From positions 893 to 64,892 of the forward strand of contig JBAYWE010000001.1 of NCBI GenBank assembly GCA_041674185.1: DNA of 64,000 nt, given 5' to 3'. The notes beneath the pieces are model-generated. The model saw only the letters and a program-made list of their open reading frames with translations, was not told the origin of the DNA and made no database searches. Positions 18,614 through 49,508 of the stretch are shown here, piece by piece. The stretch is from Minisyncoccota bacterium. Lineage in GTDB: Bacteria > Patescibacteriota > Minisyncoccia > UBA6257 > JAGOQP01. Positions within the stretch are counted from its first letter, which is position 1. Every line of letters starts with the position of its first letter. Both the position numbers and the translations under genes were made by a program.

Positions 18614-18666
18614 ATAGAACTTCACTATACAAAAAAAAGGAGGAGAAGTGAAGTAAAATAAAAATA

Positions 18667-21710: not shown

Positions 21711-21712
21711 AG

Positions 21713-31305: not shown

Positions 31306-32619
31306 ATGATCGTAAAAATAAAGCAAACATTGCTGGCAATAGGAGATATTATCGCATTATATCTCAGTTTAATAGCGGCGCTGCTCATGCGGTATGGGTA
31401 TATAAATGAAGAATATAGCCATGCACACCTCGGTCCATTTTCAATTATTTTCATACTATGGATTGCTATATTCTATATCGTAGGACTGTATGATATCCGC
31501 AATTTAAAAAATACGCTCTCATTTATGAGAAAATTTGGCGTCAGCATTCTCGCGGGTGCCGTAAGTTCCATAACATTATTTTATATCATTCCGTACTTCC
31601 ATATTTCTCCCAAAAGAAATCTCGCGCTATTTTTAGGTATATTTATTATAGTAGGAGGAATGTGGCGATTATTTTTTAATCGTACCATTCGCGTACCGCA
31701 ACGACGCGTCGTACTTATGGGAGAAGGAGAAGAATTAAATGAACTCGCTGTACATATGCGCGAAAATCCACAGATTGGATACCACGTAGTGCATCATATC
31801 ACCACCCTCCAAGAAAATCAGACGGCCCAAGAATTGAAAGCTATCCACCATCCAGATACCATTATCATCAGCGAAACACTGCACGCGCCAACCCTTATGA
31901 AAGAATTATCATCGGAGGCAATGCACGGAATAGAAATTATTGATAGCACGACCGCCTATCAAATAATATTTAAAAAACTACCTCTTTCACAAATGCACGA
32001 ATTGTGGATTATTACACGACTCTCTCGTGCAAAACGAGTACATGAAACCATGAAGCAGGTGTATGAGCCTATAGCCGCTCTATTACTTTGTATAGGACTC
32101 TCACCTCTCTTACTCGCTATCTACATACTTATTATAAGCACCTCTCGAGGACCAGGGATTTATAAACAAATACGAGTGGGAAAAGGAGAAGAAAAATTTT
32201 GGATATATAAATTCCGTACCATGCGCGTAGACGCAGAAAAGAATGGAGCGGTCTTTGCACAGAAAAATGACACACGTATTACGAAAGTCGGCACCTGGTT
32301 ACGGTTTTCTCACCTCGATGAACTCCCTCAAATTTTTAATGTGATACGCGGAGACCTATCTTTCGTAGGACCTCGTCCTGAACGTCCCGAGTTTATTATT
32401 CAGCTCAAAAAAGAAATTCCTCACTATGAGTTACGACATCTCGTGCGACCCGGTATCACCGGATGGGCACAGGTAAACTATCGAGCAAATGTAAATTTAG
32501 TAGAAGACACCTATCATAAATTGCAATACGACATGTTTTATATTCAAGAACGATCCTTTATATTTGATGTTCTCACCATATTAAAAACAATTAAAATGTT
32601 TCTCTTTAATTATAGATAG
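31306..32619 (+). CDS. Polyprenyl-phosphate sugar phosphotransferase (bacterial sugar transferase, WbaP/WecA-like initiating PGT)
   Basis: 4 N-terminal TMs plus C-terminal motifs ISTSRGPGIYKQIRVGKGEEKFWIYKFRTM and LDELPQIFNVIRGDLSFVGPRPERPEF (PF02397). Confidence 0.8.
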   Translation: MIVKIKQTLLAIGDIIALYLSLIAALLMRYGYINEEYSHAHLGPFSIIFILWIAIFYIVGLYDIRNLKNTLSFMRKFGVSILAGAVSSITLFYIIPYFHISPKRNLALFLGIFIIVGGMWRLFFNRTIRVPQRRVVLMGEGEELNELAVHMRENPQIGYHVVHHITTLQENQTAQELKAIHHPDTIIISETLHAPTLMKELSSEAMHGIEIIDSTTAYQIIFKKLPLSQMHELWIITRLSRAKRVHETMKQVYEPIAALLLCIGLSPLLLAIYILIISTSRGPGIYKQIRVGKGEEKFWIYKFRTMRVDAEKNGAVFAQKNDTRITKVGTWLRFSHLDELPQIFNVIRGDLSFVGPRPERPEFIIQLKKEIPHYELRHLVRPGITGWAQVNYRANVNLVEDTYHKLQYDMFYIQERSFIFDVLTILKTIKMFLFNYR

Positions 32620-32716
32620 ATAGGTATTACCTTACTTATTTTAAAATATGCCCTTGATTAGGGCGTATTTTTATGGTATCATATAGTCAGTTCATAATAA
32701 CAATTAGGAAGGAAAA

Positions 32717-33325
32717 ATGAAAACATGGATTAGGGAACATATCCTAGAAATGAGATTATCCATAGAAAAAAAGCGGGGGGCTATAGAACAGCAAAAAATA
32801 AAAATGAAAGGCTTTTTAAGAGGAGAATATATTGCCCTTAAAAAAGATTTTGGCGCAGGAGTAATACTCATCCTCACCATAGGAGTGATCCTATTGCTCA
32901 TCCAAGTAGTTATGAAAGTACTCGCACCAATCGTACTCATAACCAACAATGAATTATTTCAAATATTATTGTCTCTTGGTATAATACTCATTCTTGGACT
33001 TCTCTCACGGAAATTAAAGGAAAACGAGAAGACCGCATGGCTCGTTGACTTCTTGCCATCAAAATCAATGGATCAACCAGAGATGATCTTCTGGCATGAA
33101 GAAAAATATTGTTCTGGAATCTTAATAGGATATAGAGAAATTAAGACTCCAGGAGGAATCACTATAAAATTTGCGGAAATATCGGAGGTAAATATAGGAC
33201 CAACAGGAATAAGCATGTTATCTCCAAAATTTATTTCCGTGCTGTCGGAGGATTTACAGCCAACAGGAAGGAAACTAAAAGACGTAGCAAAGAGACTGGC
33301 TACATTAGGAACTATACCAAATTAA
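32717..33325 (+). CDS. Hypothetical membrane protein
   Basis: 202 aa, two TM helices. Good RBS AGGAAGGAAAAATG. Confidence 0.4.
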   Translation: MKTWIREHILEMRLSIEKKRGAIEQQKIKMKGFLRGEYIALKKDFGAGVILILTIGVILLLIQVVMKVLAPIVLITNNELFQILLSLGIILILGLLSRKLKENEKTAWLVDFLPSKSMDQPEMIFWHEEKYCSGILIGYREIKTPGGITIKFAEISEVNIGPTGISMLSPKFISVLSEDLQPTGRKLKDVAKRLATLGTIPN

Positions 33326-33344
33326 TTTTTCTAAAAACAAGTTC

Positions 33345-33369
33345 GGAGCGCAAAACGCTCCATTTTTTT
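33345..33369. terminator. Bidirectional terminator
   Basis: ggagcg-caaaa-cgctcc + attttttt, between the converging genes. Confidence 0.5.
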
Positions 33370-34855
33370 ATTCTATTTCAGTTTGAGGAACATTCCCTTT
33401 TCGCAATGCCATAGCCTTATTCCATACAAATATAACACTCTCTTCGCGCAACAGAAAAAGCGCAATAGCATAAACCACCATACTTATAAAAATATTTATA
33501 TATAAATTAATTTCCAACATACGGAACAATAAAAGTATGAGAGCCATAGCTACAGTTGCCCCAATCAATTTTTCAATTTGATGTAGAATACGAAATTGTA
33601 ACTCCTTGCGTAAGAAATGAATAAGATATAGCGTGAGAATAACCTGATTAAGTACGGTTGAAATCGCTGCTCCCTCAATACCAAATAATGGAATTAAGAG
33701 AAGATTAAATAGAAAGTTTCCAAAAATACCAATAAGAACATAGGCAATAAGCTTCTTTTCCTTATTAAGAGCAAAAAAGGCGTTACCAAACATAATAGCA
33801 ATAAAAGCAGGAACAAAAGTCAAACTCAATATACCAAACGGACCAGCGGCAGAGTAATATAGAGAACCATAGAGAAGCTGAATGATTTGTCGCGAAAGAA
33901 GAAATCCCCCAACCGTAAGAGGAATCGCAAATAACATCAATAATGAGACACCTCGTTCTAATAATTTTCTTAGTAGTTCGCTATCTTTAATAGCCCGAGA
34001 CATAGAAGGAAAAAAGGCGGTGGCAAGCAACGCGGGGATCATATAAATAATTTGTATGATGCGCTGAGCAGCACCATAGTATCCAACATCATCTATGGTA
34101 CCAAACCATCCAACCATAATCGTATCCGTGTTAAGCATAATCGCCCCCATAACTCCCAGCATACCAAACGGCCAACATGAAACTAATATTTTCTTCGCGA
34201 GTTTTTTATCAAAATTATTCCACAGATTCTTAAAATAAGATCGGTATGGATAAAATGCGACTATCATACCAAGCCCTGTGCCCGCAACATACCCCCACAC
34301 TAAAGAATATGCAGTACGAGAAATATATAAAGAAAGAAATCCAACAAGAGCAATTATTGCATTCGTAAAGACCTGAACGAATGACTCAACTTCCATACGA
34401 TCCCATGCACGAGAGAGAGTTGCTCCAAAATCCCGAAGTCCATCTAATCCAAGCATGAACAACGTAAGTGGAATAAGGATCAGCACCTCATGTTGTTTAA
34501 CAAAATATGGAGCACCGAGAACCACTGCACAAATAACAATAAAAAGAAATAGAATCTTTACTAAGAGAGCAGTAGAAAAATATTTATGCTGTAAACTAAT
34601 ATCACGAGCAGACTCTCTCGTGATAATCGCGTTAATACCAAAATCTACAAATATAGTGAATAGCGCCGCTAAACTAAGCACATAAGAAAACACCCCCCAT
34701 TCAGTAGTTCCCATAACCCGGGCGGCATATATTAGAATAACCGCCTTAAGAAAACGAGATAGAATAGATCCAAAAAACAGCCAAAAAGTATTTTTCGCTA
34801 TAGTCTGTCCAGTAGTTTTATTTTCTAAGAGGAAAGACTTTACACGCTGTATCAT
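33368..34855 (-). CDS. Polysaccharide flippase (Wzx/MOP superfamily)
   Basis: 495 aa, ~12-14 TM helices, typical oligosaccharide flippase composition. Confidence 0.65.
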   Translation of the reverse strand: MIQRVKSFLLENKTTGQTIAKNTFWLFFGSILSRFLKAVILIYAARVMGTTEWGVFSYVLSLAALFTIFVDFGINAIITRESARDISLQHKYFSTALLVKILFLFIVICAVVLGAPYFVKQHEVLILIPLTLFMLGLDGLRDFGATLSRAWDRMEVESFVQVFTNAIIALVGFLSLYISRTAYSLVWGYVAGTGLGMIVAFYPYRSYFKNLWNNFDKKLAKKILVSCWPFGMLGVMGAIMLNTDTIMVGWFGTIDDVGYYGAAQRIIQIIYMIPALLATAFFPSMSRAIKDSELLRKLLERGVSLLMLFAIPLTVGGFLLSRQIIQLLYGSLYYSAAGPFGILSLTFVPAFIAIMFGNAFFALNKEKKLIAYVLIGIFGNFLFNLLLIPLFGIEGAAISTVLNQVILTLYLIHFLRKELQFRILHQIEKLIGATVAMALILLLFRMLEINLYINIFISMVVYAIALFLLREESVIFVWNKAMALRKGNVPQTEIE

Positions 34856-34867
34856 ATATAAACCACA

Positions 34868-35986
34868 TTACATGGTTTTTAAATATTTTTCCACCTCATC
34901 AATAAATCGAGTATATATAAATAGAGCGTGAGCCTTCTGACATGCGGCTTGTGCATATTTCTCTCTTAATACATCGTCATTAAGAAGAGTTATTATTGCT
35001 TTAGCAAACCCCTCAACATCTCGTATAGCAACCGTAATGCCCGTCTCACCATCAACACTGACCTCAGGAACTCCTGTAGGAAGATTGGTATTTATCACAC
35101 ATTTACCACACATCATAGCTTCCGCTTGTGTGATACCAAACACCTCTCCATTTCCACAAGAAGGGAATGCGAAGATATCACACGCATAATAATATGGAAC
35201 GAGTTCATGCGAAGAAATGAGCGAAGGAATAATATGAACACGATCCGAAACACCAAGATGGATGGCAAGAGATATAAGCTTATCATGGAGAATCCCCGAT
35301 CCAATAATTAATACATGGACAGAAGGAACTGAAACGATTGATCTAATGAGATATTCAAATCCTTTATAATAAATAAGTCTTCCAACCCCTAAAATAAGAG
35401 GTGTTCCGTATATATTCCGAATATCCTGAGCTTTTTGTACGATCTCAGGGGTTTGGGCGTACGCCTCTGGCTTTAATCCAAAATAAATTATTCGGCATGA
35501 ATCAGAAAATTTTTTTAAAATGGGTGAATATGAAACAAGACGAGAATTTGAAACAAAAATATGACGAGCGCGACGCAACATAAACAATAAAAATGGCTGA
35601 AAAAATATTCGCGTTATTTTTTGTCGAATAATATCAGAATGATACCAAACAACAACTTGTTTTCGTCTTCCAAATAACCAATATGCAACACAGGCAAGGG
35701 GAAATGGATGATGTATAAGAATTACATCAAAATCCTGAGCCATTTTCCTAAATAAAGAAAAAAACTGTAAAGAAAGAGGCATCCCCATAAATACACCAAA
35801 ACTTTTTGCGCGATGAGTAACAACATCATCTATAATATCCCGAGCATACGAACCCCGCGACTGGCAAACTAAATTCTCTATGTATATACCGTCTTTCATA
35901 GACAAACCAGAGGCGATATCACGCGCCACAGTCTCGACTCCCCCAACCCAAGGAGCATATAATTTATTGATTTGAAGAATTTTCAT
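34868..35986 (-). CDS. Glycosyltransferase family 4
   Basis: EVFGITQAEAMMCGKCVINTNLPTGVPE is the GT4 E-x7-E region. Start placed at the internal M (MKILQINKLYAPWVGG). Confidence 0.7.
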   Translation of the reverse strand: MKILQINKLYAPWVGGVETVARDIASGLSMKDGIYIENLVCQSRGSYARDIIDDVVTHRAKSFGVFMGMPLSLQFFSLFRKMAQDFDVILIHHPFPLACVAYWLFGRRKQVVVWYHSDIIRQKITRIFFQPFLLFMLRRARHIFVSNSRLVSYSPILKKFSDSCRIIYFGLKPEAYAQTPEIVQKAQDIRNIYGTPLILGVGRLIYYKGFEYLIRSIVSVPSVHVLIIGSGILHDKLISLAIHLGVSDRVHIIPSLISSHELVPYYYACDIFAFPSCGNGEVFGITQAEAMMCGKCVINTNLPTGVPEVSVDGETGITVAIRDVEGFAKAIITLLNDDVLREKYAQAACQKAHALFIYTRFIDEVEKYLKTM

Positions 35987-37091
35987 GATTTGTGTGTGAT
36001 ATAAGTGAATTGTATACAACGTGGTATTGAGAAACCATACCTGAGATAGAATACCGTTCGGTCACCAGCTGGTATGCGCGCTGAACCATATACTCAGAGT
36101 CTTTAGGATGCTCTTGTATGAACCGTATACACCGAGCAAGAGCATTAAAATCTCCCCTTTCAAAAAGTAATCCAGTTTGATTATTATGTACTAATTCCAC
36201 CACTCCGTGAACTCGAGATGCTATGACTGGTTTTTTAAGAATCATGGATTCTAGTAGTGCTATGGGAAGACCCTCCCATCGAGTAGAAAGAACAGAAACA
36301 TCAAAAACTTCCTTAATAAAGAATAAAGTATTCTGCCCATCACCAAGAAAAAGAATGTTGGTTAAATGCAAATTATTTGCTTCTTTTTGTAACATATTCA
36401 AATCAGGACCAGAGCCAATAACAAGAAGACAAAACAGGTGTTGATCTAAAAGATTCATTGCACGAAGAAGCGTTTTTATATCTTTCTGATAATGCAATCG
36501 AGCAATAGTCCCAATAACAAATCTTTTTGAAATAAAATCTTTTATCTCTTTTCGGAGAATGTGAGGTAAAACAGCAGTATTTTTAACACCATTTTCTATA
36601 ACCTGCACTCGCTCAAGAGGAGCTAGGTTTTTTGATATCAACAATTTTCCATCATCTTGACCGACACAAATAATCCGATCGACACAGTAATTACTTATCT
36701 TCTCAAAAAGAAACAAACATCCGGTAATAATAGTTTTTCTGTGCAAAAAATGCAGTCCGTGAATGGTGTAAATGATGCGTGGCTTCTTTCCTCTTATAAG
36801 GAGAATGGGGGTGATTATTTTAATAAGAAAACCAGCCCGTACCCCATGTGCATGTACTATATCTGGAGATTCTCGAATAACGCAACGATAGAGGGTAAAC
36901 ACAGTAGTTAAAATATTTAACGAAGACGGAAAATAGGAAATGACACCCATGTCTTCTAAGAAAATAGCCCGCTGGGGAGAAAAAAATACAAAAGTAAAAA
37001 AAGAATGAAGCCCGTGGTAAATACTCAAAGAAACCCGCTCTCCCCCACTCAGAGAACCACTCGAATGTATAACAAAAATCTTAGGCTTCAT
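35964..37091 (-). CDS. Glycosyltransferase family 4
   Basis: WEGLPIALLESMILKKPVIASRVHGVVELV, GT4 motif. Confidence 0.7.
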   Translation of the reverse strand: MKPKIFVIHSSGSLSGGERVSLSIYHGLHSFFTFVFFSPQRAIFLEDMGVISYFPSSLNILTTVFTLYRCVIRESPDIVHAHGVRAGFLIKIITPILLIRGKKPRIIYTIHGLHFLHRKTIITGCLFLFEKISNYCVDRIICVGQDDGKLLISKNLAPLERVQVIENGVKNTAVLPHILRKEIKDFISKRFVIGTIARLHYQKDIKTLLRAMNLLDQHLFCLLVIGSGPDLNMLQKEANNLHLTNILFLGDGQNTLFFIKEVFDVSVLSTRWEGLPIALLESMILKKPVIASRVHGVVELVHNNQTGLLFERGDFNALARCIRFIQEHPKDSEYMVQRAYQLVTERYSISGMVSQYHVVYNSLISHTNHENSSNQ

Positions 37092-38058
37092 ATTTTTGAA
37101 TTATTGATTTGAAAATATTAAAAGATTCTGGAAAACGTATACGAAACGTATATAATCGAAATCTCCACAGAAGAGTCCTCTGAATAAATCTTAGAAGGCT
37201 TTCTATTACTAAGTATACACGAGTTCCAAAAAAAGAAATAAAGTAAAGTAATAACGAAAATATGGAAAACTTAACTCTAAGCGCTTTTTTAAAATAACAT
37301 CTTCCCATAGAAAGATCTCCGGTACGACTATAGAAATTTCCCAGACGAGAATAGAGTGAAACTGCGTCTTCCGGAAATAGAGTAGTATCGGAAAGATCAT
37401 TAAGTAGTGACTGAATACGTTGTATAAATATTTTATTGTGGATTAAATCAATGTGAGAATTTTGCTTTCGATGTCGATTATAAATAGTAAGTGGCTCAGT
37501 ATATATAGCTATATGTGTTTTCGTTTTTTTCTGTTGTGTATCTCGAATTAACAGTCCAATTTCATCAACACCATTCTGGTCTGCTTTAAAAAATTGACCA
37601 GACACAAGAACGTCCTTCTTCATCATAAGATTAAGCGGAACAAATGTCGCACAATCAATAAATTTTCTGGTATCTAAATCAAAAACCCAACTGAAACCAC
37701 TTAAAATAGTAATGTGTGGATGATCTTTAAAAAATTGTAGCTTCTTGGCAATATACTCGGGAAAGAAGAGATCGTCTTGATCTATAAACGCAATAAAATC
37801 CCCTCGCGCAATTTTGCACCCCTGCGTTCGAGGAATTGCAGGACCACCCATATTCGAATCTAAAAAAATGGTCTGGATCCGTTGATCAGTAAAAGATGAG
37901 ATAATATTTCTTGTTGTGTCAGATGAATTATCGTCAATAATAATAAGCTCAAAATTAGAAAAAGTTTGAGCAAGAACACTCCGAATAGTGCGGGCAACAG
38001 TACGCTCGCCATTATATGTGGGCAATATCACCGAAACAGTAGCATGTGAAGTTTCCAT
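37081..38058 (-). CDS. Glycosyltransferase family 2
   Basis: VSVILPTYNGERTVARTIRSVLAQTFSNFELIIIDDNSSD, GT2 DxD context. Confidence 0.75.
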   Translation of the reverse strand: METSHATVSVILPTYNGERTVARTIRSVLAQTFSNFELIIIDDNSSDTTRNIISSFTDQRIQTIFLDSNMGGPAIPRTQGCKIARGDFIAFIDQDDLFFPEYIAKKLQFFKDHPHITILSGFSWVFDLDTRKFIDCATFVPLNLMMKKDVLVSGQFFKADQNGVDEIGLLIRDTQQKKTKTHIAIYTEPLTIYNRHRKQNSHIDLIHNKIFIQRIQSLLNDLSDTTLFPEDAVSLYSRLGNFYSRTGDLSMGRCYFKKALRVKFSIFSLLLYFISFFGTRVYLVIESLLRFIQRTLLWRFRLYTFRIRFPESFNIFKSIIQKYEA

Positions 38059-38077
38059 AAAGAGTGTGTTGATTATA

Positions 38078-41439: not shown

Positions 41440-42590
41440 GTGATATATACTCGCTTTATAGCCTGTTCATAGGCTCGTACAGACTTTTCTATAGAGAAGG
41501 ATTCTACAATATCTTTCTGAACGGAAGATGGGCTAGGGAGTGTCCGTGGACAAGACAGGACGGCTAGTAACTTTTCACCCATAAGCATACCATCACCCAC
41601 AGGAATAAGAAATCCGTTTAAACCGTCACGAATAGATTCCCGCGGACCAAAATCACAATCGGTTGCTACCACAGGAATTCCACAGGCAAGTGCTTCTGTA
41701 ATAACACGAGGATTTCCTTCATACCGAGAAGCAAATGAAAAAACATCACTTTGAGCAATATACTTTATGGGGTTATCCTTAAATCCAAACAAAAAAACAT
41801 CTTTTTGTAAAATAAGATTATATTTTTCAAGTAAGGGGGAAATAATACGAGGATCTCCTGACCCCAACAATACCAAAACAGCTGACACATTTTTCCTAAC
41901 AAAATCAAAGGCAGTAAATAATGTATCAAAATCCTTATCTGCACGACTAAGACGCATACTACTAATAACAATCTTATATTCTCTTTTTGCATCGAAAACA
42001 GCCTCGGAAACAGGCTCTCTCATATACAATGGAAATTTTTCAGCATCAATAACGGGAGAATGAATGGTTATTATGTTTCGTGAATGAATACAAAATTCTT
42101 CCTGCATTCTTGTGAGAGCTTCTTGGTTATTCACTATGGTGAGTTTTAATTTCGGAAAGTATCTTTTTGCTAAATGAAAATATATTGCAGAAAATTGTGA
42201 AGCAGAAAAAAATTTAAAAATATTAGTATACTCAATACGAATTATTGGAGTGTGTAGACACAACCGTGAAATATATAACAAAATGAGAATTGCAAGATCA
42301 ATACTCGGACTTGCACTTAAAATAACACCATCATACGCGTGTTTTTTAAAAAAACAAAAACAACGATACAATAAATTAATTATACCCGAGACAGAAATAC
42401 TATGTAGGGGAACATTTTCTCCCAGCACAGTGCGTCGATCTAACTGAGGAGAAGATGTATGTAATTCAAAATTGAGTACAGAAACAGAGAAATCGCTTTT
42501 TGCAAGATGTGTAATAATGTGAGCTGAATCTATACCCTTTCCACCAAAATCGCTCATCCAATCGTATGTGATCCAAATAAGTTTCTTCAT
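41436..42590 (-). CDS. Glycosyltransferase family 4
   Basis: YEGNPRVITEALACGIPVVATDCDFGPRE. 4-nt overlap with the upstream gene. Confidence 0.7.
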   Translation of the reverse strand: MKKLIWITYDWMSDFGGKGIDSAHIITHLAKSDFSVSVLNFELHTSSPQLDRRTVLGENVPLHSISVSGIINLLYRCFCFFKKHAYDGVILSASPSIDLAILILLYISRLCLHTPIIRIEYTNIFKFFSASQFSAIYFHLAKRYFPKLKLTIVNNQEALTRMQEEFCIHSRNIITIHSPVIDAEKFPLYMREPVSEAVFDAKREYKIVISSMRLSRADKDFDTLFTAFDFVRKNVSAVLVLLGSGDPRIISPLLEKYNLILQKDVFLFGFKDNPIKYIAQSDVFSFASRYEGNPRVITEALACGIPVVATDCDFGPRESIRDGLNGFLIPVGDGMLMGEKLLAVLSCPRTLPSPSSVQKDIVESFSIEKSVRAYEQAIKRVYIT

Positions 42591-43528
42591 TTTATAAAGA
42601 TAATATTATCAAAATCAGAAACATCACCAATACGATCATACTGCGTCTGAATAAGCAAAAAATATTTTGAAATTTGAGAATACTCAATTTGTTGCAAAGA
42701 ACCATCGTGAGAAATAGAGAACATAGAAAATCCATTCTTCTGCATAAATTCCAACACCGTACTATAATTTTCTGAAAATGGTCTAAAACGAATTTCTATA
42801 CAAGCAACAAGATGCTCCTGCGCCAGAATATGTTCCGCACCACGCAGCACTAATGATTCGGCGCCCTCAACATCTATCTTAATAAGTGTAGGTTGTATTA
42901 CATGATCAGAAGAAAAAGAATCGAGGGTTACTGACGATGTATGTATTTCTTCAAAGGGGGCATCCTCATTCTGAGTGCCATCAAAATTATCAAGAACTAG
43001 AGTAGAAATCCACGACCCAGAAAGAGGGCGAGAAAAGAAAGACACTACATCATTCTTCTCAGAAACAGCCTTCTCAACAATAGTCATATTGTCCCTTTTG
43101 TTCTTTCTTAAATACACTAATGTGTGTGGATCTGGTTCAAATGCATATACACGGGAGTCTTTTGATATCTCTGCAATTAAACATGAGTAATATCCAATAT
43201 GCGCCCCCACATCAAAAAATATCTCATTGTCCTTCACTTGATGTAAAAGAAACTTAGTTAGTCGAATCTCTGGATCGGTCAAAAGAAAGGCTCCAAATTT
43301 CCACATATCAGCACACAATGGAACGGGGATTGTCATCGTCGAGCCAAAAAACATTTTTCTTTTTTGAGGAAAAATAAAATCACCTCCATAAAAAATATTG
43401 GAAATTCTTCCTACGCACGAAGCCATGAAAACACGTACAGGATTATACATAAGTTGAGACCATCTCCCTCGACGCCAAATAGTTTCTATCTTTTCAAATT
43501 TCTTTATTAAAAAATCTTTGTGTATCAT
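42587..43528 (-). CDS. FkbM-family methyltransferase
   Basis: FFDVGAHIGYYSCLIAE...RVYAFEPDPHTLVYLRKN. Confidence 0.7.
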   Translation of the reverse strand: MIHKDFLIKKFEKIETIWRRGRWSQLMYNPVRVFMASCVGRISNIFYGGDFIFPQKRKMFFGSTMTIPVPLCADMWKFGAFLLTDPEIRLTKFLLHQVKDNEIFFDVGAHIGYYSCLIAEISKDSRVYAFEPDPHTLVYLRKNKRDNMTIVEKAVSEKNDVVSFFSRPLSGSWISTLVLDNFDGTQNEDAPFEEIHTSSVTLDSFSSDHVIQPTLIKIDVEGAESLVLRGAEHILAQEHLVACIEIRFRPFSENYSTVLEFMQKNGFSMFSISHDGSLQQIEYSQISKYFLLIQTQYDRIGDVSDFDNIIFIK

Positions 43529-44412
43529 ATGTTCTTTTTAAAGACAATAAATCCATCGGATGTGCTATCCACCACACACAATCCTCCCTGAGAATCTATA
43601 AAAGACGGTGCATATCCTACCTGTTCTAAATATGCTCGTGCCTCTTGGTGCATAGGAAGATCAGGATTATATTCCATAACAATAATAGGATTGTGTGATG
43701 AAAGCAACCGGTGAGCTCCTTGTAATATCCTAAATTCAGCACCCTCAGCATCTATTTTTATTACATACGGAGCAATATTATATTTTTGTATAATACCGTC
43801 AAGAGTAAATGATGGTACCCATATCTCTTCCTGAATACTTCTAAACTGCTCGTTAAGGTCAACAATGCTTTGTTCTGTACTACTATTTTCAGAATAAAGA
43901 AGGGGGAGTTTAATAAAAGACTCACCTTCTTCATGAGAAGAAACAGTCCCACAAAAAAGTGAAATATTATCGTGAGATTTCTTATTAATATTTAAATATT
44001 CCCAAGCCTCTACATTTGGTTCAAATGATAAGACGCGTCCTTTTTTACCAACAAGAAAACTAGCTAATAAAGAATAGAATCCAAAATGAGCACCTACATC
44101 AAAAAACACAGCTCCCTCGGTAAGGGTGTTTAATAAAAATCTTGCAAGACGAATCTCAGACGGATGCGCCTTCGCCCCATATAGATAATATTCTAAGCCA
44201 ATGGGAGCAGGAATACACATGCGCCACCCAAAAAACAAAGGACCCGATATCAACGTTACCTTTTTAGAAAACCTATATCTAACCTTACTATATATACCCA
44301 CAACAAATCTGATGGGATGTTTTAAAAATACAGAAAATAACCGCCCTATTCTATTTTTAACAGTTGTGTGCTCCACCGCATCAAGAATCAAAGAAAAATT
44401 ATCTGCATACAT
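43525..44412 (-). CDS. FkbM-family methyltransferase
   Basis: VFFDVGAHFGFYSLLASF...RVLSFEPNVEAWEYL. Confidence 0.7.
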   Translation of the reverse strand: MYADNFSLILDAVEHTTVKNRIGRLFSVFLKHPIRFVVGIYSKVRYRFSKKVTLISGPLFFGWRMCIPAPIGLEYYLYGAKAHPSEIRLARFLLNTLTEGAVFFDVGAHFGFYSLLASFLVGKKGRVLSFEPNVEAWEYLNINKKSHDNISLFCGTVSSHEEGESFIKLPLLYSENSSTEQSIVDLNEQFRSIQEEIWVPSFTLDGIIQKYNIAPYVIKIDAEGAEFRILQGAHRLLSSHNPIIVMEYNPDLPMHQEARAYLEQVGYAPSFIDSQGGLCVVDSTSDGFIVFKKNI

Positions 44413-44420
44413 AAAGAAAT

Positions 44421-46652
44421 CTATTGAAAATTAATGGGCTGCCATATTTTATCGTCTATGTTCTTGATAATCATATCAAGTGCATCTTTCTTCTCAGGAA
44501 CCATTATTTGTAGTGCTTCGGCGCATATCTTTGCTCGTTTGTCGTGTATTTTATAATAGTGCTGTAACAATATATAGTATCCAGACACCATCCCTTGTTC
44601 TTGTTGATAAATACCAGGACTAAGTTTTCGAACAAATTCTAACGAATCAAATCCATCATCATAATAGATTTCTCCTGCGGATATCTGAACTAAGGCAAGA
44701 TATAGATGAGATTGAGCCACTTTATCATCAAGCACAACCACATCCTTTAAGACAGTAATGGCTTCGTTATATCTCTTCTGAAATCCAAGATTATACGCGC
44801 GCATATAATATAAATCTTGACGCTGAGGAGATAATTCTTGCGCTTTTTGATACGCCTCTTGTGCCAAAGGAAGATATTCAGTTAATCCCCCTTTCCCCAA
44901 CGCATCATATCCACCCCCTAAATTAGCCCAGTAGCGAGGATTGTAGGGTTCACGCACAAGTAAATCTTTTATTTGATCAATAGCAAAGAGTACTAATTGT
45001 TTTTCACTTTCTTTTCCTTTATACAAATCCTTTACATTATCCAACATATTAGTACGAATAACATCCTGCGCATATGTATAAGGATGGAGTGCTGAATCCA
45101 TATTTTCTTTAAATTCATCTAAAGAGACTGATGCTTGTGAATTACGAATAAGAGAAAGGTACGAACTCATTTGAGAAAACGGAATAACAGTCCAAAAGAT
45201 AAGAGTATAGAAGAAGAAGATTGCGACGACACTAAAAACAGTGGTTAGAGCGTAGTAATTAGTATTAAGTGAAGAAGTCTTCTTTCCTGAATTTTTGCTC
45301 GTTCTCAAGCCCCTATCTCTAATATCTCCTTCTTCCCCTCGTTCCTTGTTTCTCGTCACTTCAGCTACTACATAACCGAGGAATCCAAACCATAAAATAT
45401 AGGTAATAATTGAGTCAAATACCGTAAGGTTTTGTATAAAATAAGCGGTTCCAAAAAACAAAATCATCGCTTTTACAAAAGAGAAGGCACGACCTCGAAT
45501 ACAATACCACAATAGAAGTCCCCATATACTCAGATAAATGAGTAATCCGATGACTCCATTCATAACCAATACATCAAAAATCTTGTTGTGAGCTCTATCA
45601 AACCACTTATTTTCAAATTCAAAATATCGAGGATTATAGTTTGCATTGTAGGCAATATTAAAATTCTCAGGACCCCAACCCAATAAGAACTTCTGTACTC
45701 CATACTCAGAAGGATTTACCGCATCCAAACTCACCCCCGCGGAGATCAAACGAGTCTGAGTGCTGTTGTCTTGAAGAGTAAACTGGGCAAGACGATCAAA
45801 TCCAGGAATTTTCTGCCAAAATTGAGCATTTTTTGTTGAAAAGAAAAATACTCCACAAAAAACTAGAATAAGCAGTATATATCCTGCAATACGTGAAAGT
45901 GAACGAGAACTAATATGTACGTTCTTTCCTGAATACCACACATATAAAAATACAAGAATAATACCAACCCCCACACCTACAATAACACCACGCGTTTCAG
46001 TAATAAAAATACCAAAAAACGAAGTTATGCCGACAACAATAGATGCAATAATCCAAAACAAGCGTACACCTGTTTTATTTTCTTTTTGTCGATAGTATTC
46101 CCAAAAAACAATTCCCGCCGAAAATAAAGCAAATAAAAATACCTCCGCAAGATAAATGGGATTTCCGGTAAATGAGGTGGGGCGTATCACACCACGGGAA
46201 AAATCAACAAGCGCATCAAAAAATAAAACAAAACTCACACCTAAAGAAATCTGAAAAAAACGAACCCAATCTTTATATTCAAATAAAAGATATGAAAACA
46301 CAAAAAATCCAAAAAAGAAAAGAAGCCCCAAAAGTCCCTCCCCTCGTTCAATGTCTCCAAAAAAAGCACGATATGAATCAAAAGCAAAAAGAGTACTCAC
46401 CACATTAAGAGCAATAAAAGAAAAAATCGCAATACCCAAAGGATTCTTTAATAACGTATGCACCTTACGACCAATATCTTCACGAAACTCTCTGTTATAC
46501 CATAGATAGCCCCCAACTAACAAGACAACAATAGTAACAATCCAACGAATTAATAAATTCTTCCCACTAATATAGGGGAAAAAATATGACTTCGCAATGA
46601 CCAAGGGGATAAACGCCAATACATACAGAAAATACTTTATAATATTTTTCAT
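44421..46652 (-). CDS. Wzy_C (O-antigen ligase/polymerase-like) membrane protein with C-terminal TPR repeats; candidate O-oligosaccharyltransferase
   Basis: ~12 TM helices with an O-antigen-ligase-like core (RAHNKIFDVLVMNGVIGLLIYLSIWGLLLWY), then a ~250-aa soluble TPR-like tail (AYQKAQELSPQRQDLYYMRAYNLGFQKRYNEAI). Confidence 0.6.
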   Translation of the reverse strand: MKNIIKYFLYVLAFIPLVIAKSYFFPYISGKNLLIRWIVTIVVLLVGGYLWYNREFREDIGRKVHTLLKNPLGIAIFSFIALNVVSTLFAFDSYRAFFGDIERGEGLLGLLFFFGFFVFSYLLFEYKDWVRFFQISLGVSFVLFFDALVDFSRGVIRPTSFTGNPIYLAEVFLFALFSAGIVFWEYYRQKENKTGVRLFWIIASIVVGITSFFGIFITETRGVIVGVGVGIILVFLYVWYSGKNVHISSRSLSRIAGYILLILVFCGVFFFSTKNAQFWQKIPGFDRLAQFTLQDNSTQTRLISAGVSLDAVNPSEYGVQKFLLGWGPENFNIAYNANYNPRYFEFENKWFDRAHNKIFDVLVMNGVIGLLIYLSIWGLLLWYCIRGRAFSFVKAMILFFGTAYFIQNLTVFDSIITYILWFGFLGYVVAEVTRNKERGEEGDIRDRGLRTSKNSGKKTSSLNTNYYALTTVFSVVAIFFFYTLIFWTVIPFSQMSSYLSLIRNSQASVSLDEFKENMDSALHPYTYAQDVIRTNMLDNVKDLYKGKESEKQLVLFAIDQIKDLLVREPYNPRYWANLGGGYDALGKGGLTEYLPLAQEAYQKAQELSPQRQDLYYMRAYNLGFQKRYNEAITVLKDVVVLDDKVAQSHLYLALVQISAGEIYYDDGFDSLEFVRKLSPGIYQQEQGMVSGYYILLQHYYKIHDKRAKICAEALQIMVPEKKDALDMIIKNIDDKIWQPINFQ

Positions 46653-46844
46653 TCAAGAAAATTAATAGCGGTCTTCTATAACCGATATTATAAAAATTAA
46701 TAATATGAAGCAGTATAACCTAATTTAAGTATAATGGAAAGATAGTAAATAAGATTTTTGCCAACAAAAAACAGCCCCGAAGGGCTGTTTTTTGTTTTTA
46801 CCTCTTATGTGAAATCAAAAGATAACACACGAATAGTTAAACTA

Positions 46845-48701
46845 TTAAGGTAAGGTTACACCAGCTCCTGTGGTCTTATACACACTTGAATCAAGTGATG
46901 TAGTGACAGGAGAAGCTAAAGCAGAATCTGTGCTCCAAATGATATTTTTAACAAACATCATGTAAGAACCAGAAGTTACTGTTGAAGGAATTTCTCCCTT
47001 TACAGTAATGCTTGCAGTAGTATCCTTTGAAACTTTGTAAACTCCACCAGTGTACGCATTGTATCCGGTTACAACCAAGCTGTTATTAGCAGTTGATGAA
47101 CCAGTTGCACCTGCGCTGACTGAAGTTGCATAGGTAAGATTCGTTGAGGTTGAATCGCTCAAGTAGATATCTCCACCTGCTGCGGTTACGCTCAATACGA
47201 AGGTTGCCATACCTTTATAGGTAGGAGTTGCATTTGCTCCTGCAGTGTTCTGAGTAGTGATACCAGAAGCTGAGGTCAATGATACAACCAAACCTTTGCT
47301 CAATACAGTCATGGTGTCAGACAAAGCTGAACCACTCAAGTATCCTCCAGTGACTGAATCGCCACGTGAGTTTTCTGCTACGAATCCTGCTGCAGAATCC
47401 AAGCTTGCGGTTGAAGTTGCTGCAGTGGTGGTAGCACCAGTGTAGTCAGCTTTAATCGTAATGGTCTTGGTTGAATCTGCTGGTACATAGAGGGTCATGC
47501 TGGTAAAGGTTGCACGATTGCTTGAAACAGTCGCTGAACCCAACAAGGTTGATCCATCATATGCATATACAGTTGATTCTGAAGCATTTCCTCCCAAGGT
47601 TACTACAAAGTCAGTAACTTTGATTTGATCCTTTTCAGAGCGCAAATCAACAGCCAATAAGGTTGCTTCTTTTACATCTCCGTTAGTATCAGACACAATG
47701 TTTGCTGCCTTTGGTGAATTTCCGTTCTTGGAAACAGTCAAAGTAGCATTGGTAACTTGGCTCTTTTCAGGATTGAATGTGCGGCTGATAGCTGAAGCTG
47801 GGCCGTATTGATCAATTCCCAAACCATCCTTTCCACGTACTCCGTTTGCAGGAACAGTAACGGTGCGATTTGCTGCGTTTGCATCTGCAGTATCAATGGT
47901 GCTGTACAAATCACCAGCTACAGTAAGAACTTTGTATTCACCTGCTTTTACAAGGAATGAAAGTCCACTAACAGTAACATAGTAATTGGTTCCATCTTTA
48001 ACCACAGTGTTTGAATTCAAAGCAGATGATGACAAGACGGTTGAACCATCCATGACATACAAGGTGCTCAAAATTTTGTTGTAAAGCGCAGTTGAGCTAC
48101 CAAGATCAATCTTGACGCGCTCTACGTTTACATCACCATTGGTTGCCTTAAGTTTCAAACCAATTAAGGCAAACTTGGTTGCTCCTTCATAAGCCTTCTG
48201 TCCATCGGCTGGAGTTGGGTTCAACTCAACAGTCAAAGTTCCTTCGGTTTTGGTCATTCCGGTAGGAGTGGTTGGAGTAGTAGGGGTAGTAGGAGTGGTT
48301 GGGGTAGTAGGGGTCGTAACAACACTCATTGAATTGAAGTGTGCGCGAGTTACTGCTCCAAAGTATCCAACAGCAGGAGAGATTCCTACTGATTTTTGAT
48401 AAGCGGCCAACGCAGCTTTAGTCATAGGACCAAAGAATCCGGTTGGTGCTACTGACAAGAATCCTTTTGAATTAAGGAATCCTTGCAAAGCGGTTACTTC
48501 TGCTCCCTTTGAACCAACAGTGAGGTTGCTGGTGTAAGTTGCTGAAGTTGCTGGGGTTGTACCTGCTTGTGCCTGTAATGCTTGAATCTGAGCCAAGAGG
48601 GCTTGGATTTGAGCGTTGATGTCAGTCTGCGCGGACGCTGACGGAGCAACAATTGCTACAGCCAACAAAGCAAATACGAAAATTTTTGAAAATTTATTCA
48701 T
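46845..48701 (-). CDS. Secreted Thr/Ser-rich surface (S-layer-like) protein with PG_binding_1 domain and (TTP)n linker
   Basis: Signal peptide. Coiled AQIQALLAQIQALQAQ. Peptidoglycan-binding motif GSKGAEVTALQGFLNSKGF...FGPMTKAALAAYQKSVGI. (TTP)x5 linker. ~450 aa beta-rich, T/S/G/A-dominated domain. Confidence 0.6.
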   Translation of the reverse strand: MNKFSKIFVFALLAVAIVAPSASAQTDINAQIQALLAQIQALQAQAGTTPATSATYTSNLTVGSKGAEVTALQGFLNSKGFLSVAPTGFFGPMTKAALAAYQKSVGISPAVGYFGAVTRAHFNSMSVVTTPTTPTTPTTPTTPTTPTGMTKTEGTLTVELNPTPADGQKAYEGATKFALIGLKLKATNGDVNVERVKIDLGSSTALYNKILSTLYVMDGSTVLSSSALNSNTVVKDGTNYYVTVSGLSFLVKAGEYKVLTVAGDLYSTIDTADANAANRTVTVPANGVRGKDGLGIDQYGPASAISRTFNPEKSQVTNATLTVSKNGNSPKAANIVSDTNGDVKEATLLAVDLRSEKDQIKVTDFVVTLGGNASESTVYAYDGSTLLGSATVSSNRATFTSMTLYVPADSTKTITIKADYTGATTTAATSTASLDSAAGFVAENSRGDSVTGGYLSGSALSDTMTVLSKGLVVSLTSASGITTQNTAGANATPTYKGMATFVLSVTAAGGDIYLSDSTSTNLTYATSVSAGATGSSTANNSLVVTGYNAYTGGVYKVSKDTTASITVKGEIPSTVTSGSYMMFVKNIIWSTDSALASPVTTSLDSSVYKTTGAGVTLP

Positions 48702-49381
48702 ATCGAATTTTTGTTTGTTCTGAATTAAGTGATTTTTGTAATTGTTAGAAAATTCTTGCAGCGGTGACTACCCTTATTACCGACCCACTACTCCATCGGT
48801 GAGGACGAATAAGTAAGTTAATAATAGTGATCACGCTTGTGTGCGAGAATCTTGACTTCCCATAAGGAAGCCACGCGCTTGTATAATAGACAAGTATTAT
48901 ACCAGCGCGCGAATCCCCTATTTAGTTTTAGTCCGGATGAGATAAAGAAAAACCTCATAGAGATGAGGCGTTAAAAACAACAGTATACAATACTGAATCA
49001 TACAATATATATACAGAGCTCGTATTCCGCCTCACACGGAAAAACTTTTATTGATTTATATAGTACAAAGATAGTATAGCAAGTATTGGCATAAATGTCC
49101 AATAAACCTTTTATACTTATCTCTACCCCGTCACATATCTGTCTTCGTCAGGGCTTATTATAAGAAACGAGCAACCCTCCAAAACGTTACAAGAATACAT
49201 CTCAAGGGAGTTCTGGGGGATATTATTCTGCTTATACATACCCACATATACCCTCATTTTACACTTTCACGCACACAATGAAGCGCACCATACACACATA
49301 AAATATACACATAATATCTATATCCGCACACATCCATATATATATAACAGATACCCCTCGCACACACACCCTGTACACAAC

Positions 49382-49417
49382 TTTCCATATTTTTTCGCGA
49401 TCGCGAAAAAATATGGA
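49382..49417. repeat. Perfect palindrome copy 2: TTCCATATTTTTTCGCGATCGCGAAAAAATATGGAA
   Basis: 36-bp perfect inverted repeat, ~90 nt downstream of the stop of the HTH gene. Confidence 0.8.
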
Positions 49418-49508
49418 AGTCTTACCCAAAGAGGAAAAACCAACCAAAAACGCCCCTATAATGGCGTTTTATCTATATATTCTATATATAATCGTATATA
49501 AAAGCTTA

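What the first reader, a model, noticed from the sequence alone, without database searches (positions are those of the whole stretch)
31306..48701. ~17-kb surface glycan locus ending at a Wzy_C-TPR protein and a Thr/Ser-rich PG-binding surface protein: candidate protein O-glycosylation (S-layer glycosylation) system
Gene order on the minus strand is: flippase, GT4, GT4, GT2, GT9, GT9, FkbM, GT4, FkbM, FkbM, Wzy_C+TPR membrane protein, then the 618-aa secreted protein. The initiating phosphoglycosyltransferase is divergent at the other end. Several junctions have 4-nt ATGA overlaps, indicating an operon. Wzy_C-domain proteins are O-antigen ligases but also the PglL/PilO-type O-oligosaccharyltransferases. 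The adjacent protein has a signal peptide, a PG_binding_1 domain, a (TTP)5 linker and a ~450-aa beta-rich domain dominated by Thr/Ser, which is an ideal O-glycan acceptor. The arrangement suggests the locus builds a lipid-linked oligosaccharide that is transferred en bloc onto this surface protein.
Basis: inference. Interest (0 to 1): 0.6.

Follow-up and report, generated by a model that had tools for sequence, protein, structure and literature searches.

The report
Candidate surface-protein O-glycosylation locus in Paceibacteria
An ultra-small, LPS-less CPR bacterium carries a swappable sugar-building gene cassette, and beside it a WaaL-like membrane enzyme that probably attaches the finished sugar chain to the neighbouring wall-anchored surface protein; this is predicted from sequence, not shown.

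Summary
The organism is a Candidatus Paceibacterota (CPR) bacterium.

- **Synteny:** in 54 of 68 species genomes with enough flank, a homolog of the 618-aa wall-binding, Thr-rich, three-Ig-domain protein lies directly upstream. In two Wolfebacteria loci, type IV pilins take that place.
- **Cassette swapping:** the nearest relative keeps the surface protein (87%), the Wzy_C-TPR enzyme (74%) and Wzx (69%), but its glycosyltransferases are unrelated. This fits a conserved ligase better than a repeat-specific polymerase.
- **Precedent:** the predicted Gram-positive S-layer O-oligosaccharyltransferases have the same layout (WsfB; WsaB plus WsaA).

Caveats: the surface gene has its own terminator, and a large sister clade keeps it without the glycan island. 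No direct evidence identifies the acceptor, and S-layer status is untested.

Verdict: a plausible new member of the O-oligosaccharyltransferase kind, with moderate confidence.

The parts
31306..32619 (+). Initiating polyprenyl-phosphate glycosylphosphotransferase (437 aa), divergent from the rest of the locus
   Evidence: Pfam Bac_transf at E 9e-61. NCBIfam TIGR03025 EPS_sugtrans scores 344 bits, above its 295.55 cut-off.
32717..33325 (+). 202-aa protein with two hydrophobic segments and no family match. It is a conserved neighbour of Wzx.
   Evidence: No Pfam or NCBIfam hit. Homologs sit next to Wzx in L002 (66%) and L004 (39%). Sequence shown.
33368..34855 (-). Wzx-type (MOP family) flippase, 495 aa
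   Evidence: Polysacc_synt at E 4e-39, plus Polysacc_synt_3 and MurJ. 69% identical to the L002 flippase although the glycosyltransferases differ.
34868..36019 (-). GT4 glycosyltransferase (383 aa)
   Evidence: Glycos_transf_1 at 2.8e-30 and Glyco_transf_4.
35964..37091 (-). GT4 glycosyltransferase (375 aa)
   Evidence: Glycos_transf_1 at 2.8e-27 and Glyco_transf_4.
37081..38058 (-). GT2 glycosyltransferase (325 aa)
   Evidence: Glycos_transf_2 at 5.7e-31.
38078..39244 (-). GT9 (heptosyltransferase-family) glycosyltransferase (388 aa)
   Evidence: Glyco_transf_9 at 4.6e-27. Its matches to LPS heptosyltransferase equivalogs are all below their cut-offs.
39234..40565 (-). Second GT9-family glycosyltransferase (443 aa)
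   Evidence: Glyco_transf_9 at 1.4e-15.
40501..41439 (-). FkbM-type methyltransferase (312 aa)
   Evidence: Methyltransf_21 at 9.5e-15. ATGA overlap with the upstream gene.
41436..42590 (-). GT4-type glycosyltransferase (384 aa)
   Evidence: Glycos_transf_1 at 4.3e-25.
42587..43528 (-). FkbM-type methyltransferase (313 aa)
   Evidence: Methyltransf_21 at 4.6e-18. ATGA overlaps on both sides.
43525..44412 (-). FkbM-type methyltransferase (295 aa)
   Evidence: Methyltransf_21 at 1.3e-22.
44421..46652 (-). Wzy_C-TPR enzyme (743 aa): a 12-TM WaaL-fold core (residues 1-433), a cytoplasmic linker, TM13 (472-490) and an extracytoplasmic TPR domain (about 491-743). Candidate en bloc glycan transferase (O-OTase or ligase).
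   Evidence: - Wzy_C scores 51.9 bits.
- AF2 model: pLDDT 90, pTM 0.86.
- Topology follows the positive-inside rule.
- R220, R286, R300 and H354 are invariant, and H354 aligns with E. coli WaaL H338.
- The external loop 274-366 is the best conserved part, 63% on average.
46763..46796 (-). Intrinsic terminator hairpin followed by a U-run, between the surface-protein gene and the Wzy_C-TPR gene
   Evidence: 15-bp stem with a UUCG loop, -23 kcal/mol, z = -6.4, matched by 0 of 200 shuffles. Sequence shown.
46845..48701 (-). 618-aa secreted surface protein and candidate glycan acceptor. Order of parts: signal sequence, short coiled coil, PG_binding_1 domain, disordered (TTP)5 linker, three Ig-like beta-sandwich domains.
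   Evidence: - PG_binding_1 at 2.6e-9.
- AF2 pLDDT 82, with a disordered linker at residues 127-144.
- Foldseek hits to adhesin and integrin Ig-like stalks such as PrgB and AgI/II.
- 27% Ser+Thr.
- Family of about 610-690-aa proteins in Paceibacteria.
- Directly upstream of Wzy_C-TPR in 54 of 68 species.
49509..50384 (-). 291-aa protein with a C-terminal DeoR-like HTH domain. Conserved upstream neighbour of the surface-protein gene and a possible regulator.
   Evidence: HTH_DeoR at 4.2e-7. Homologs occupy the same place in L009 (68%), L008 (59%), L003 (50%), L004 and others.

Best explanation
The locus builds a lipid-linked, methylated oligosaccharide and transfers it in one piece to a cell-surface protein.

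1. The Bac_transf enzyme starts the chain on polyprenyl phosphate at the cytoplasmic face.
2. Six glycosyltransferases (three GT4, one GT2, two GT9) and three FkbM methyltransferases extend and decorate it.
3. Wzx flips it to the outer face of the membrane.
4. The Wzy_C-TPR protein, a WaaL-fold enzyme, has its conserved Arg/His loop and its TPR domain both facing outward. It transfers the glycan en bloc to an acceptor.
5. The most likely acceptor is Ser/Thr of the neighbouring peptidoglycan-anchored protein, probably in its Thr-Pro linker and Thr/Ser-rich Ig-like domains. Type IV pilins may also be acceptors. The TPR domain would recruit the protein substrate.

**Shown here:** gene content, fold, topology, invariant catalytic-type residues, conserved gene pairing, and cassette swapping around a conserved enzyme.

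**Inferred:** the donor lipid, en bloc transfer, the protein acceptor, and the role of the TPR domain.
For: 2. No lipid A-core acceptor is expected. The organism is Candidatus Paceibacterota, and CPR genomes are reported to lack lipid A/LPS genes (PMC5220378).
3. The TPR domain is external. There are 12 TM helices with both ends inside, then TM13. The TPR profile matches the OGT TPR at 1e-26.
4. Precedents for a TPR domain on O-OTases: WsfB and PglL carry a C-terminal TPR, WsaB has the separate TPR protein WsaA (PMC2943079), and TfpW has a periplasmic TPR and lies next to pilA (bioRxiv 10.1101/2020.04.19.049825). In the CPR loci, second paralogs are split the same way, into a Wzy_C ORF of about 440-490 aa and a TM+TPR ORF of about 190 aa.
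5. Enzyme-substrate-like linkage. A surface-protein homolog lies directly upstream on the same strand in 54 of 68 species genomes, with a median gap of 135 nt and enzyme identity down to about 30%. In L005 and L015 the upstream genes are 380-aa type IV pilins. Substrate genes are closely linked to TfpO, TfpM and PglS (PMC12645811).
6. The enzyme is inherited with the surface protein, not with the cassette. Window versus L002: surface protein 87%, enzyme 74%, Wzx 69%, all glycosyltransferases 33% or less or absent. Cassettes differ in every locus examined.
7. Tandem copies. Two or three full-length copies follow the surface gene in some loci, such as L053 and L057. This resembles the paired PglL and TfpO of Acinetobacter more than a set of polymerases.
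8. The acceptor looks suitable. It is secreted, wall-bound, has a disordered Thr-Pro linker and is 27% Ser+Thr. Its gene is monocistronic and next to the cluster, as with sgsE beside the slg cluster (PMC2943079).
Against: - There is no direct evidence of glycosylation or of the acceptor.
- PglL_A and Wzy_C_2, the motifs used to tell PglL/PglS apart from WaaL, are absent in all 46 members. They are also absent from the proven OTases TfpO and TfpM (PMC12645811).
- The reverse linkage is weak. Only 7 of 47 surface-protein loci from metagenomes have a Wzy_C gene downstream. A large clade keeps the surface gene in the same FtsK/RecA/EF-P context with no glycan island. That sample is dominated by related contigs from a few sites.
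- Thr-rich linkers are equally present in surface proteins with and without the adjacent enzyme.
- This is the only Wzy_C-family protein in a locus that has a Wzx, so it could be the polymerase.
- The alignment of H354 to WaaL H338 is short and has low hhalign probability. The Arg equivalences rest on spacing only.
Confidence: 0.5

Rival explanations
1. The Wzy_C-TPR protein is the Wzy-type polymerase of a Wzx/Wzy-dependent cell-wall or capsular polysaccharide. It joins flipped repeat units into a polymer, which other enzymes then attach. The surface protein is merely a neighbouring envelope gene.
For: - The locus has a PGT, a Wzx and only one Wzy_C-family membrane protein. A classical Wzx pathway needs a polymerase.
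- Pfam Wzy_C also covers proposed Gram-positive polymerases such as TuaE (my own knowledge, not tested here).
- Many surface-protein genes have no adjacent enzyme.
Against: - Polymerases normally co-vary with the repeat unit. Here the enzyme is 74% identical between loci whose glycosyltransferases are unrelated, and its identity tracks that of the surface protein.
- No Wzz/PCP chain-length regulator and no LCP ligase were found among the genes annotated in the window.
- Two or three tandem full-length copies occur in some loci.
- One related locus ends in an ABC_tran/Wzt_C exporter gene, a pathway that needs no polymerase. This is a single truncated case.
- No NCBIfam polymerase model is matched.
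- About seven sugars plus three methylations is long for a repeat unit (inference).
Confidence: 0.2
2. The enzyme is a ligase, but its acceptor is not a protein. It would attach the flipped glycan to peptidoglycan or to a membrane glycolipid anchor, making a wall polysaccharide or lipoglycan. The TPR domain would bind wall material.
For: - WaaL fold with conserved Arg/His residues.
- The canonical WaaL acceptor is a glycolipid.
- TPR domains can also bind polysaccharide-export partners (PMC2943079 ref. 99; bioRxiv 10.1101/2020.04.19.049825).
- CPR envelopes are poorly understood (PMC5220378).
- The surface protein is retained in a clade that lacks the island.
Against: - Known wall-polymer attachment in monoderm bacteria uses LCP enzymes, not WaaL-like ones (my own knowledge).
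- The recurrent same-strand pairing with a secreted Thr-rich protein, or with pilins, is the pattern seen for protein-specific O-OTases (PMC12645811).
- The fused or split TPR layout matches the predicted S-layer O-OTases (PMC2943079).
Confidence: 0.2
3. The enzyme is a classical WaaL that ligates O-antigen to lipid A-core in an LPS-producing diderm.
For: - WaaL is the best structural match.
- Two GT9 heptosyltransferase-family genes lie in the cassette.
- One paper casually refers to Patescibacteria LPS (PMC12911398).
Against: - The organism is Paceibacterota, and CPR genomes lack lpxC/kdsA and lipid A synthesis (PMC5220378).
- No lipid A, Kdo or outer-membrane genes are among the genes annotated in the 64-kb window.
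- The GT9 matches to LPS heptosyltransferase equivalogs all fall below their cut-offs.
- The extra TM13 and TPR domain are not part of WaaL.
Confidence: 0.02

Closest known systems
S-layer glycosylation (slg) clusters of Paenibacillus alvei and Geobacillus stearothermophilus, with the predicted O-OTases WsfB and WsaB (+WsaA)
   Same: - Monoderm-type envelope.
- The cluster has a Bac_transf/WbaP-like initiating enzyme, several glycosyltransferases, a methyltransferase activity and an exporter.
- The predicted transferase has a Wzy_C domain with a C-terminal TPR (WsfB), or a separate small TPR protein (WsaA, 168 aa). Both layouts occur in the CPR loci.
- The target surface-protein gene is monocistronic and next to the cluster (sgsE, sgtA).
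- Genes are tightly packed with overlapping stop and start codons (PMC2943079).
   Different: - Those clusters export through an ABC transporter (Wzm/Wzt) and make long polymers. This one uses Wzx and has no polymerase candidate other than the enzyme itself.
- Their targets are SLH-anchored S-layer proteins. This target is a PG_binding_1-anchored protein with three Ig-like domains, and whether it forms a lattice is unknown.
- Sequence relatedness to WsfB/WsaB could not be tested here.
Substrate-linked pilin O-OTases TfpO/PilO, TfpM and PglS (Pseudomonas, Acinetobacter, Moraxella)
   Same: - Wzy_C/WaaL-like enzymes encoded directly beside, and in the same orientation as, their protein substrate.
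- TfpO and TfpM likewise lack PglL_A and Wzy_C_2.
- They transfer glycans borrowed from variable O-antigen or capsule loci (PMC12645811, PMC3643930).
- In Wolfebacteria loci the CPR enzyme lies next to type IV pilin genes.
   Different: - Those are Gram-negative periplasmic systems acting on pilins.
- They lack the extra TM13 and the roughly 250-aa TPR domain.
- In the window the neighbour is not a pilin.
PglL general O-OTase (Neisseria, Burkholderia and others)
   Same: - Wzy_C core with the shared Arg, Arg and His residues.
- En bloc transfer from Und-PP-glycan flipped by a Wzx-like flippase, with no polymerase.
- Preference for low-complexity Ser/Ala/Pro-rich regions (PMC3643930).
   Different: - The PglL_A (PF15864) and Wzy_C_2 motifs are not detected in any of the 46 family members.
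- PglL is usually not linked to its substrates.
WaaL O-antigen ligase (structures 7TPG and 7TPJ)
   Same: Best structural match: 12-TM fold, an external loop carrying the conserved His, and Arg residues at the outer membrane face.
   Different: - No lipid A-core acceptor is expected in CPR.
- Extra TM13 and external TPR domain.
- About 15% sequence identity.
- Lies in a surface-protein and glycan locus, not a core-LPS locus.
TfpW (Pseudomonas aeruginosa group IV pilin arabinosyl-OTase)
   Same: A membrane glycosyltransferase with a large periplasmic C-terminal TPR domain, encoded immediately downstream of its protein substrate pilA (bioRxiv 10.1101/2020.04.19.049825).
   Different: TfpW is an ArnT/Emb-like GT-C enzyme with a DDX motif. 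It is not a Wzy_C/WaaL-fold protein.

Membership tests
Wzy_C / WaaL-like ligase superfamily (PF04932) | Pfam Wzy_C match above the gathering score | tested here: met
   51.9 bits against a 31.7 cut-off. All 46 of 46 family members match.
Wzy_C / WaaL-like ligase superfamily (PF04932) | WaaL-type 12-TM fold with a large external loop | tested here: met
Wzy_C / WaaL-like ligase superfamily (PF04932) | Conserved Arg, Arg and His (E. coli WaaL R215, R288, H338; PglL R224, R298, H349) | tested here: inconclusive
   H354 is invariant and aligns with H338, but the alignment is short and of low probability. R220 and R300 (or R286) are invariant and similarly spaced, but their equivalence is inferred rather than aligned.
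WaaL O-antigen ligase proper (LPS) | The organism makes lipid A-core as the acceptor | not testable with these tools
   Only 64 kb of the genome is available. No lipid A or Kdo genes are among those annotated. The literature reports that CPR lack them (PMC5220378).
PglL / PglS O-OTases | PglL_A (PF15864) and Wzy_C_2 motifs flanking Wzy_C | tested here: not met
   Neither family appears at E <= 0.01 for the window protein or among the listed families for the 46 members.
Substrate-linked O-OTases (TfpO, TfpM, PglS) | Enzyme gene directly beside its protein-substrate gene, in the same orientation | tested here: met
   A surface-protein homolog lies directly upstream in 54 of 68 species, with a median gap of 135 nt. 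Pilin genes lie upstream in L005 and L015. That this protein is the substrate is an assumption.
Substrate-linked O-OTases (TfpO, TfpM, PglS) | The substrate is a type IV pilin | tested here: not met
   The window neighbour is a Sec-type secreted PG_binding_1 protein with no N_methyl motif. The window's pilin-like gene lies 11 kb away, at 59741-60820.
Gram-positive slg clusters (WsfB, WsaB+WsaA) | Wzy_C enzyme with a C-terminal TPR, or an adjacent small TPR protein | tested here: met
   The window enzyme is the fused form. Paralogs in L034, L038, L049, L051, L056, L066 and L082 are the split form. The comparison comes from PMC2943079.
Gram-positive slg clusters (WsfB, WsaB+WsaA) | Sequence homology to WsfB/WsaB beyond the shared Pfam domain | not tested
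The top homologs are all CPR.
Gram-positive slg clusters (WsfB, WsaB+WsaA) | The target protein forms a 2D S-layer lattice and is glycosylated | not testable with these tools
   The model shows three Ig-like domains resembling adhesin stalks and no match to a known S-layer protein. S-layers have been seen on some CPR cells (PMC13293708; bioRxiv 10.1101/2022.04.20.488981).
Wzy repeat-unit polymerase | Sequence co-varies with the repeat-unit (glycosyltransferase) cassette | tested here: not met
   74% identity to L002, while the glycosyltransferases are 33% identical or less, or absent. Enzyme identity tracks surface-protein identity across 12 loci.
Wzy repeat-unit polymerase | Accompanied by a Wzz/PCP co-polymerase | tested here: not met
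   No Wzz/GNVR or tyrosine-kinase hit among the genes scanned in the window. ORFs shorter than about 110 aa, and the rest of the genome, were not examined.

The most novel reading that the evidence does not exclude
The Wzy_C-TPR family would be the protein O-oligosaccharyltransferase of Paceibacteria and related CPR lineages. At least 4,000 clusters at 50% identity match its profile at E <= 1e-30. It would decorate the main peptidoglycan-anchored envelope protein (possibly the S-layer seen by cryo-EM) and type IV pilins with glycans from a hypervariable, horizontally swapped cassette. The 'O-antigen-like' glycans of these LPS-less episymbionts would then be carried on proteins, and would shape host attachment and phage susceptibility.
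Probability: 0.4. Interest if true: 0.7.

Novelty: new member of a known kind. Interest (0 to 1): 0.5.

Why it matters
CPR/Patescibacteria are a large part of bacterial diversity. They live attached to host cells, and their envelope is still described as unclear (PMC5220378, PMC13293708).

Their genomes and their phages carry many 'O-antigen' sugar genes (PMC12911398), yet they have no LPS to carry an O-antigen. What those glycans are attached to is therefore an open question.

This locus offers a concrete, testable answer: a conserved WaaL-fold/TPR enzyme paired with a conserved wall-anchored surface protein (or with pilins), next to a swappable glycan cassette. If confirmed, it would:
- identify a major surface glycoprotein of Paceibacteria;
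- explain strain-level surface variation relevant to host and phage specificity;
- add a TPR-bearing O-OTase with apparently relaxed donor specificity to the glycoengineering toolbox.

Tried and rejected
- **PDB sequence searches.** Both the single sequence and the family profile returned only TPR proteins.
- **hhalign against E. coli K-12 WaaL.** Only a 36-column match around the His-Asn motif (probability 3.7%, E 0.012). This is useful for H354 only.
- **NCBIfam.** No hit for the enzyme.
- **ABC exporters in the related loci.** A regex scan for ABC ATPases downstream of the enzyme found none in 86 loci. The one ABC/Wzt_C case (L007) is cut off by the end of the locus, so the argument that an ABC pathway needs no polymerase rests on a single example.
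- **Thr/Ser content and linker length.** Comparing surface proteins with and without an adjacent enzyme showed no useful difference: S/T 0.23 versus 0.25, with Thr-rich linkers in both.
- **Rfam scan of the 807-nt region upstream of the surface gene.** Only chance-level hits.
- **Literature.** Searches for a CPR/Patescibacteria O-OTase, O-antigen ligase or S-layer glycosylation found no description of this family.
- **Classical LPS WaaL.** Considered and rejected (see rival explanations).
- **The window's own contig.** Its copy in the contig index added nothing beyond the window.

Full report
**1. The observation**

- On the plus strand there is a divergent Bac_transf phosphoglycosyltransferase (PGT) at 31306-32619. 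It also scores above the cut-off for NCBIfam TIGR03025.
- On the minus strand, in order: Wzx, GT4, GT4, GT2, GT9, GT9, FkbM, GT4-type, FkbM, FkbM, a 743-aa Wzy_C protein, and a 618-aa PG_binding_1 protein.
- Three junctions are exact ATGA overlaps.
- The 618-aa protein has a Sec-type signal sequence, a (TTP)5 run and 27% Ser+Thr. That is the highest value in the window, where the median is 12%.

One correction is needed. A strong terminator hairpin (-23 kcal/mol, z -6.4) separates the surface-protein gene from the Wzy_C gene. The surface gene is therefore its own transcription unit, and the glycan operon starts at the Wzy_C gene.

**2. The organism**

An identical Wzy_C protein is named in NCBI as coming from a Candidatus Paceibacterota MAG. 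All close relatives are Patescibacteria/CPR. CPR genomes are reported to lack lipid A/LPS synthesis, and their envelope is described as unclear (PMC5220378). None of the roughly 45 window genes scanned is an LPS, outer-membrane, Wzz or LCP gene.

**3. The enzyme**

With a 46-sequence alignment, AlphaFold2 gives pLDDT 90 and pTM 0.86.
- *Topology.* Hydropathy and the positive-inside rule give 12 TM helices with both ends in the cytoplasm. There is a 93-residue external loop (274-366) and a Lys/Arg-rich cytoplasmic linker. A 13th TM helix then places the C-terminal 250 residues outside the cell.
- *TPR domain.* That C-terminal region is a genuine TPR array. The family profile matches the TPR region of O-GlcNAc transferase (OGT) at E 1e-26.
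- *Conserved residues.* R220, R286, R300 and H354 are among the invariant residues. H354 aligns with E. coli WaaL H338 in a short match around the 'HN' motif. R215, R288 and H338 are the residues shared by WaaL and PglL (PMC3643930).
- *Conservation by region.* The external loop is the best conserved part, 63% mean identity against 33% for the TPR domain.
- *Classification.* The motifs used to separate PglL/PglS from WaaL (PglL_A and Wzy_C_2) are absent from all 46 members. They are also absent from the proven OTases TfpO and TfpM (PMC12645811). In an organism without LPS this does not decide the function.
- *Family size.* At least 4,016 clusters at 50% identity match the profile at E <= 1e-30.

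**4. The surface protein**

The model (pLDDT 82) has these parts in order:
- a signal sequence;
- a short helix;
- the three-helix PG_binding_1 domain;
- a disordered Thr-Pro linker (residues 127-144);
- three beta-sandwich domains.

The beta-sandwich domains resemble the Ig-like stalks of Gram-positive adhesins and integrins. No known S-layer fold was matched. Homologs of 610-690 aa are common in Paceibacteria, and longer forms of about 1,100 aa also exist. Family members examined, whether or not the enzyme is adjacent, mostly have a Thr-rich low-complexity linker after the PG-binding domain.

**5. Synteny**

I fetched 80 loci from one-genome-per-species collections using the enzyme family, plus six from contig look-ups. 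ORFs were then scanned with HMMs for both families.
- Of 68 loci with at least 2.5 kb upstream, 54 (79%) have a surface-protein homolog directly upstream on the same strand. The median gap is 135 nt. This holds down to about 30% enzyme identity and across record titles that include Paceibacter, Colwell-, Nomura-, Jorgensen-, Harrison- and Wolfebacteria and a Microgenomatus bin.
- In L005 and L015 (Wolfebacteria) the genes upstream are 380-aa type IV pilin-like proteins. In three other Wolfebacteria loci they are sugar-metabolism genes. The short non-CPR homologs lack the TPR domain.
- Downstream, the cassette content differs in every locus examined.
- Against the closest relative (L002), the surface protein is 87% identical, the enzyme 74%, Wzx 69% and the 202-aa protein 66%. 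The glycosyltransferases are 33% identical or less, or absent. Across 12 loci, enzyme identity tracks surface-protein identity.
- Some loci carry two or three full-length enzyme copies in tandem.
- Many loci carry a second copy split into a Wzy_C ORF of about 440-490 aa and a TM+TPR ORF of about 190 aa.

**6. Evidence that cuts the other way**

Starting from the surface protein, only 7 of 47 metagenome loci with room downstream have a Wzy_C gene there. These loci are dominated by one clade of 650-690-aa proteins. That clade keeps the gene in the same EF-P/RecA/FtsK context but has no glycan island.

The surface protein is therefore a core gene. The enzyme and cassette form an island that usually, but not always, sits beside it. 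Whether those genomes carry the enzyme elsewhere could not be checked.

**7. Interpretation**

The fold, the invariant residues and the lack of an LPS acceptor point to a ligase-type enzyme acting on a flipped lipid-linked glycan.

Four features favour a protein acceptor:
- the external TPR domain;
- the recurrent pairing with a secreted Thr-rich protein or with pilins;
- conservation of the enzyme across cassette swaps;
- tandem paralogs.

The closest precedent is the Gram-positive S-layer glycosylation cluster. The predicted O-OTase WsfB is Wzy_C with a C-terminal TPR. WsaB lacks the TPR but is preceded by the 168-aa TPR protein WsaA. The S-layer genes sgsE and sgtA lie next to their clusters and are transcribed on their own (PMC2943079). 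TfpW shows that an unrelated pilin OTase also carries a periplasmic TPR domain next to pilA (bioRxiv 10.1101/2020.04.19.049825).

I put about 0.5 on protein O-glycosylation of the neighbouring protein and/or pilins. A Wzy polymerase role gets 0.2, ligation to a non-protein acceptor 0.2, and classical LPS ligation close to zero.

**8. Novelty**

I found no paper describing this family or a CPR O-OTase. The literature only speculates about a 'glycosylated S-layer' (PMC5220378) and notes O-antigen sugar genes in CPR phages (PMC12911398). The mechanism would be of a known kind, so I class the finding as a new member of a known kind. It is of moderate interest because it makes the question of what carries the surface glycans of CPR bacteria directly testable.

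Noticed in passing
window 15047-18784 (-): A 1245-aa class I aminoacyl-tRNA synthetase (tRNA-synt_1 plus Anticodon_1, IleRS-like) has a histidine-phosphatase (His_Phos_1) domain inserted at residues 568-730.
   Followed up: no
window 59741-60820 (-): A 359-aa type IV pilin-like protein (N_methyl motif) with 21% Ser+Thr, the second highest in the window. It is a possible second acceptor, because similar pilins of about 380 aa sit directly upstream of the Wzy_C-TPR gene in Wolfebacteria loci L005 and L015.
   Followed up: partly
window 48702-49508: An 807-nt non-coding stretch lies upstream of the surface-protein gene, with a promoter-like site (TGGACA-17-TATACT, preceded by TG) at 49101-49073. 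This would give a 5' leader of about 370 nt. No Rfam family matches.
   Followed up: partly
L034, L038, L049, L051, L056, L066, L082, L151 (for example L049 12453-13919 and 13926-14507): Downstream of the fused enzyme, a second paralog is split into a Wzy_C ORF of about 440-490 aa and an ORF of about 190 aa with one TM helix plus TPR. This mirrors WsaB and WsaA of Geobacillus.
   Followed up: partly
L053 4920-11833; L057 9980-16889: Three full-length Wzy_C-TPR genes lie in tandem directly after the surface-protein gene.
   Followed up: no
L168 and L169 (contigs Ga0209542_10000366 and Ga0210057_1000160): A large clade of 645-690-aa surface-protein homologs keeps the EF-P/RecA/FtsK upstream context but has no Wzy_C gene or glycan cassette downstream. 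PKD-domain and HHH-domain proteins follow instead.
   Followed up: partly
window 32717-33325 (+): A 202-aa protein with two hydrophobic segments and no family match is conserved between Wzx and the divergent PGT in L002 (66%) and L004 (39%). Its role is unknown.
   Followed up: no
window 38078-40565 (-): Two GT9 (LPS-heptosyltransferase-family) genes occur in an organism not expected to make LPS. L002 also has two GT9 genes, only 25-29% identical to these. No ADP-heptose synthesis genes were seen in the window.
   Followed up: no
window 8644-10215 (-): A VirD4/TrwB-like type IV coupling ATPase (T4SS-DNA_transf, TrwB_AAD_bind) lies beside proteins of unknown function.
   Followed up: no
window 21710-22037 (-): A tmRNA gene (109 bits) encoding the tag peptide AKPMALAFA.
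   Followed up: no
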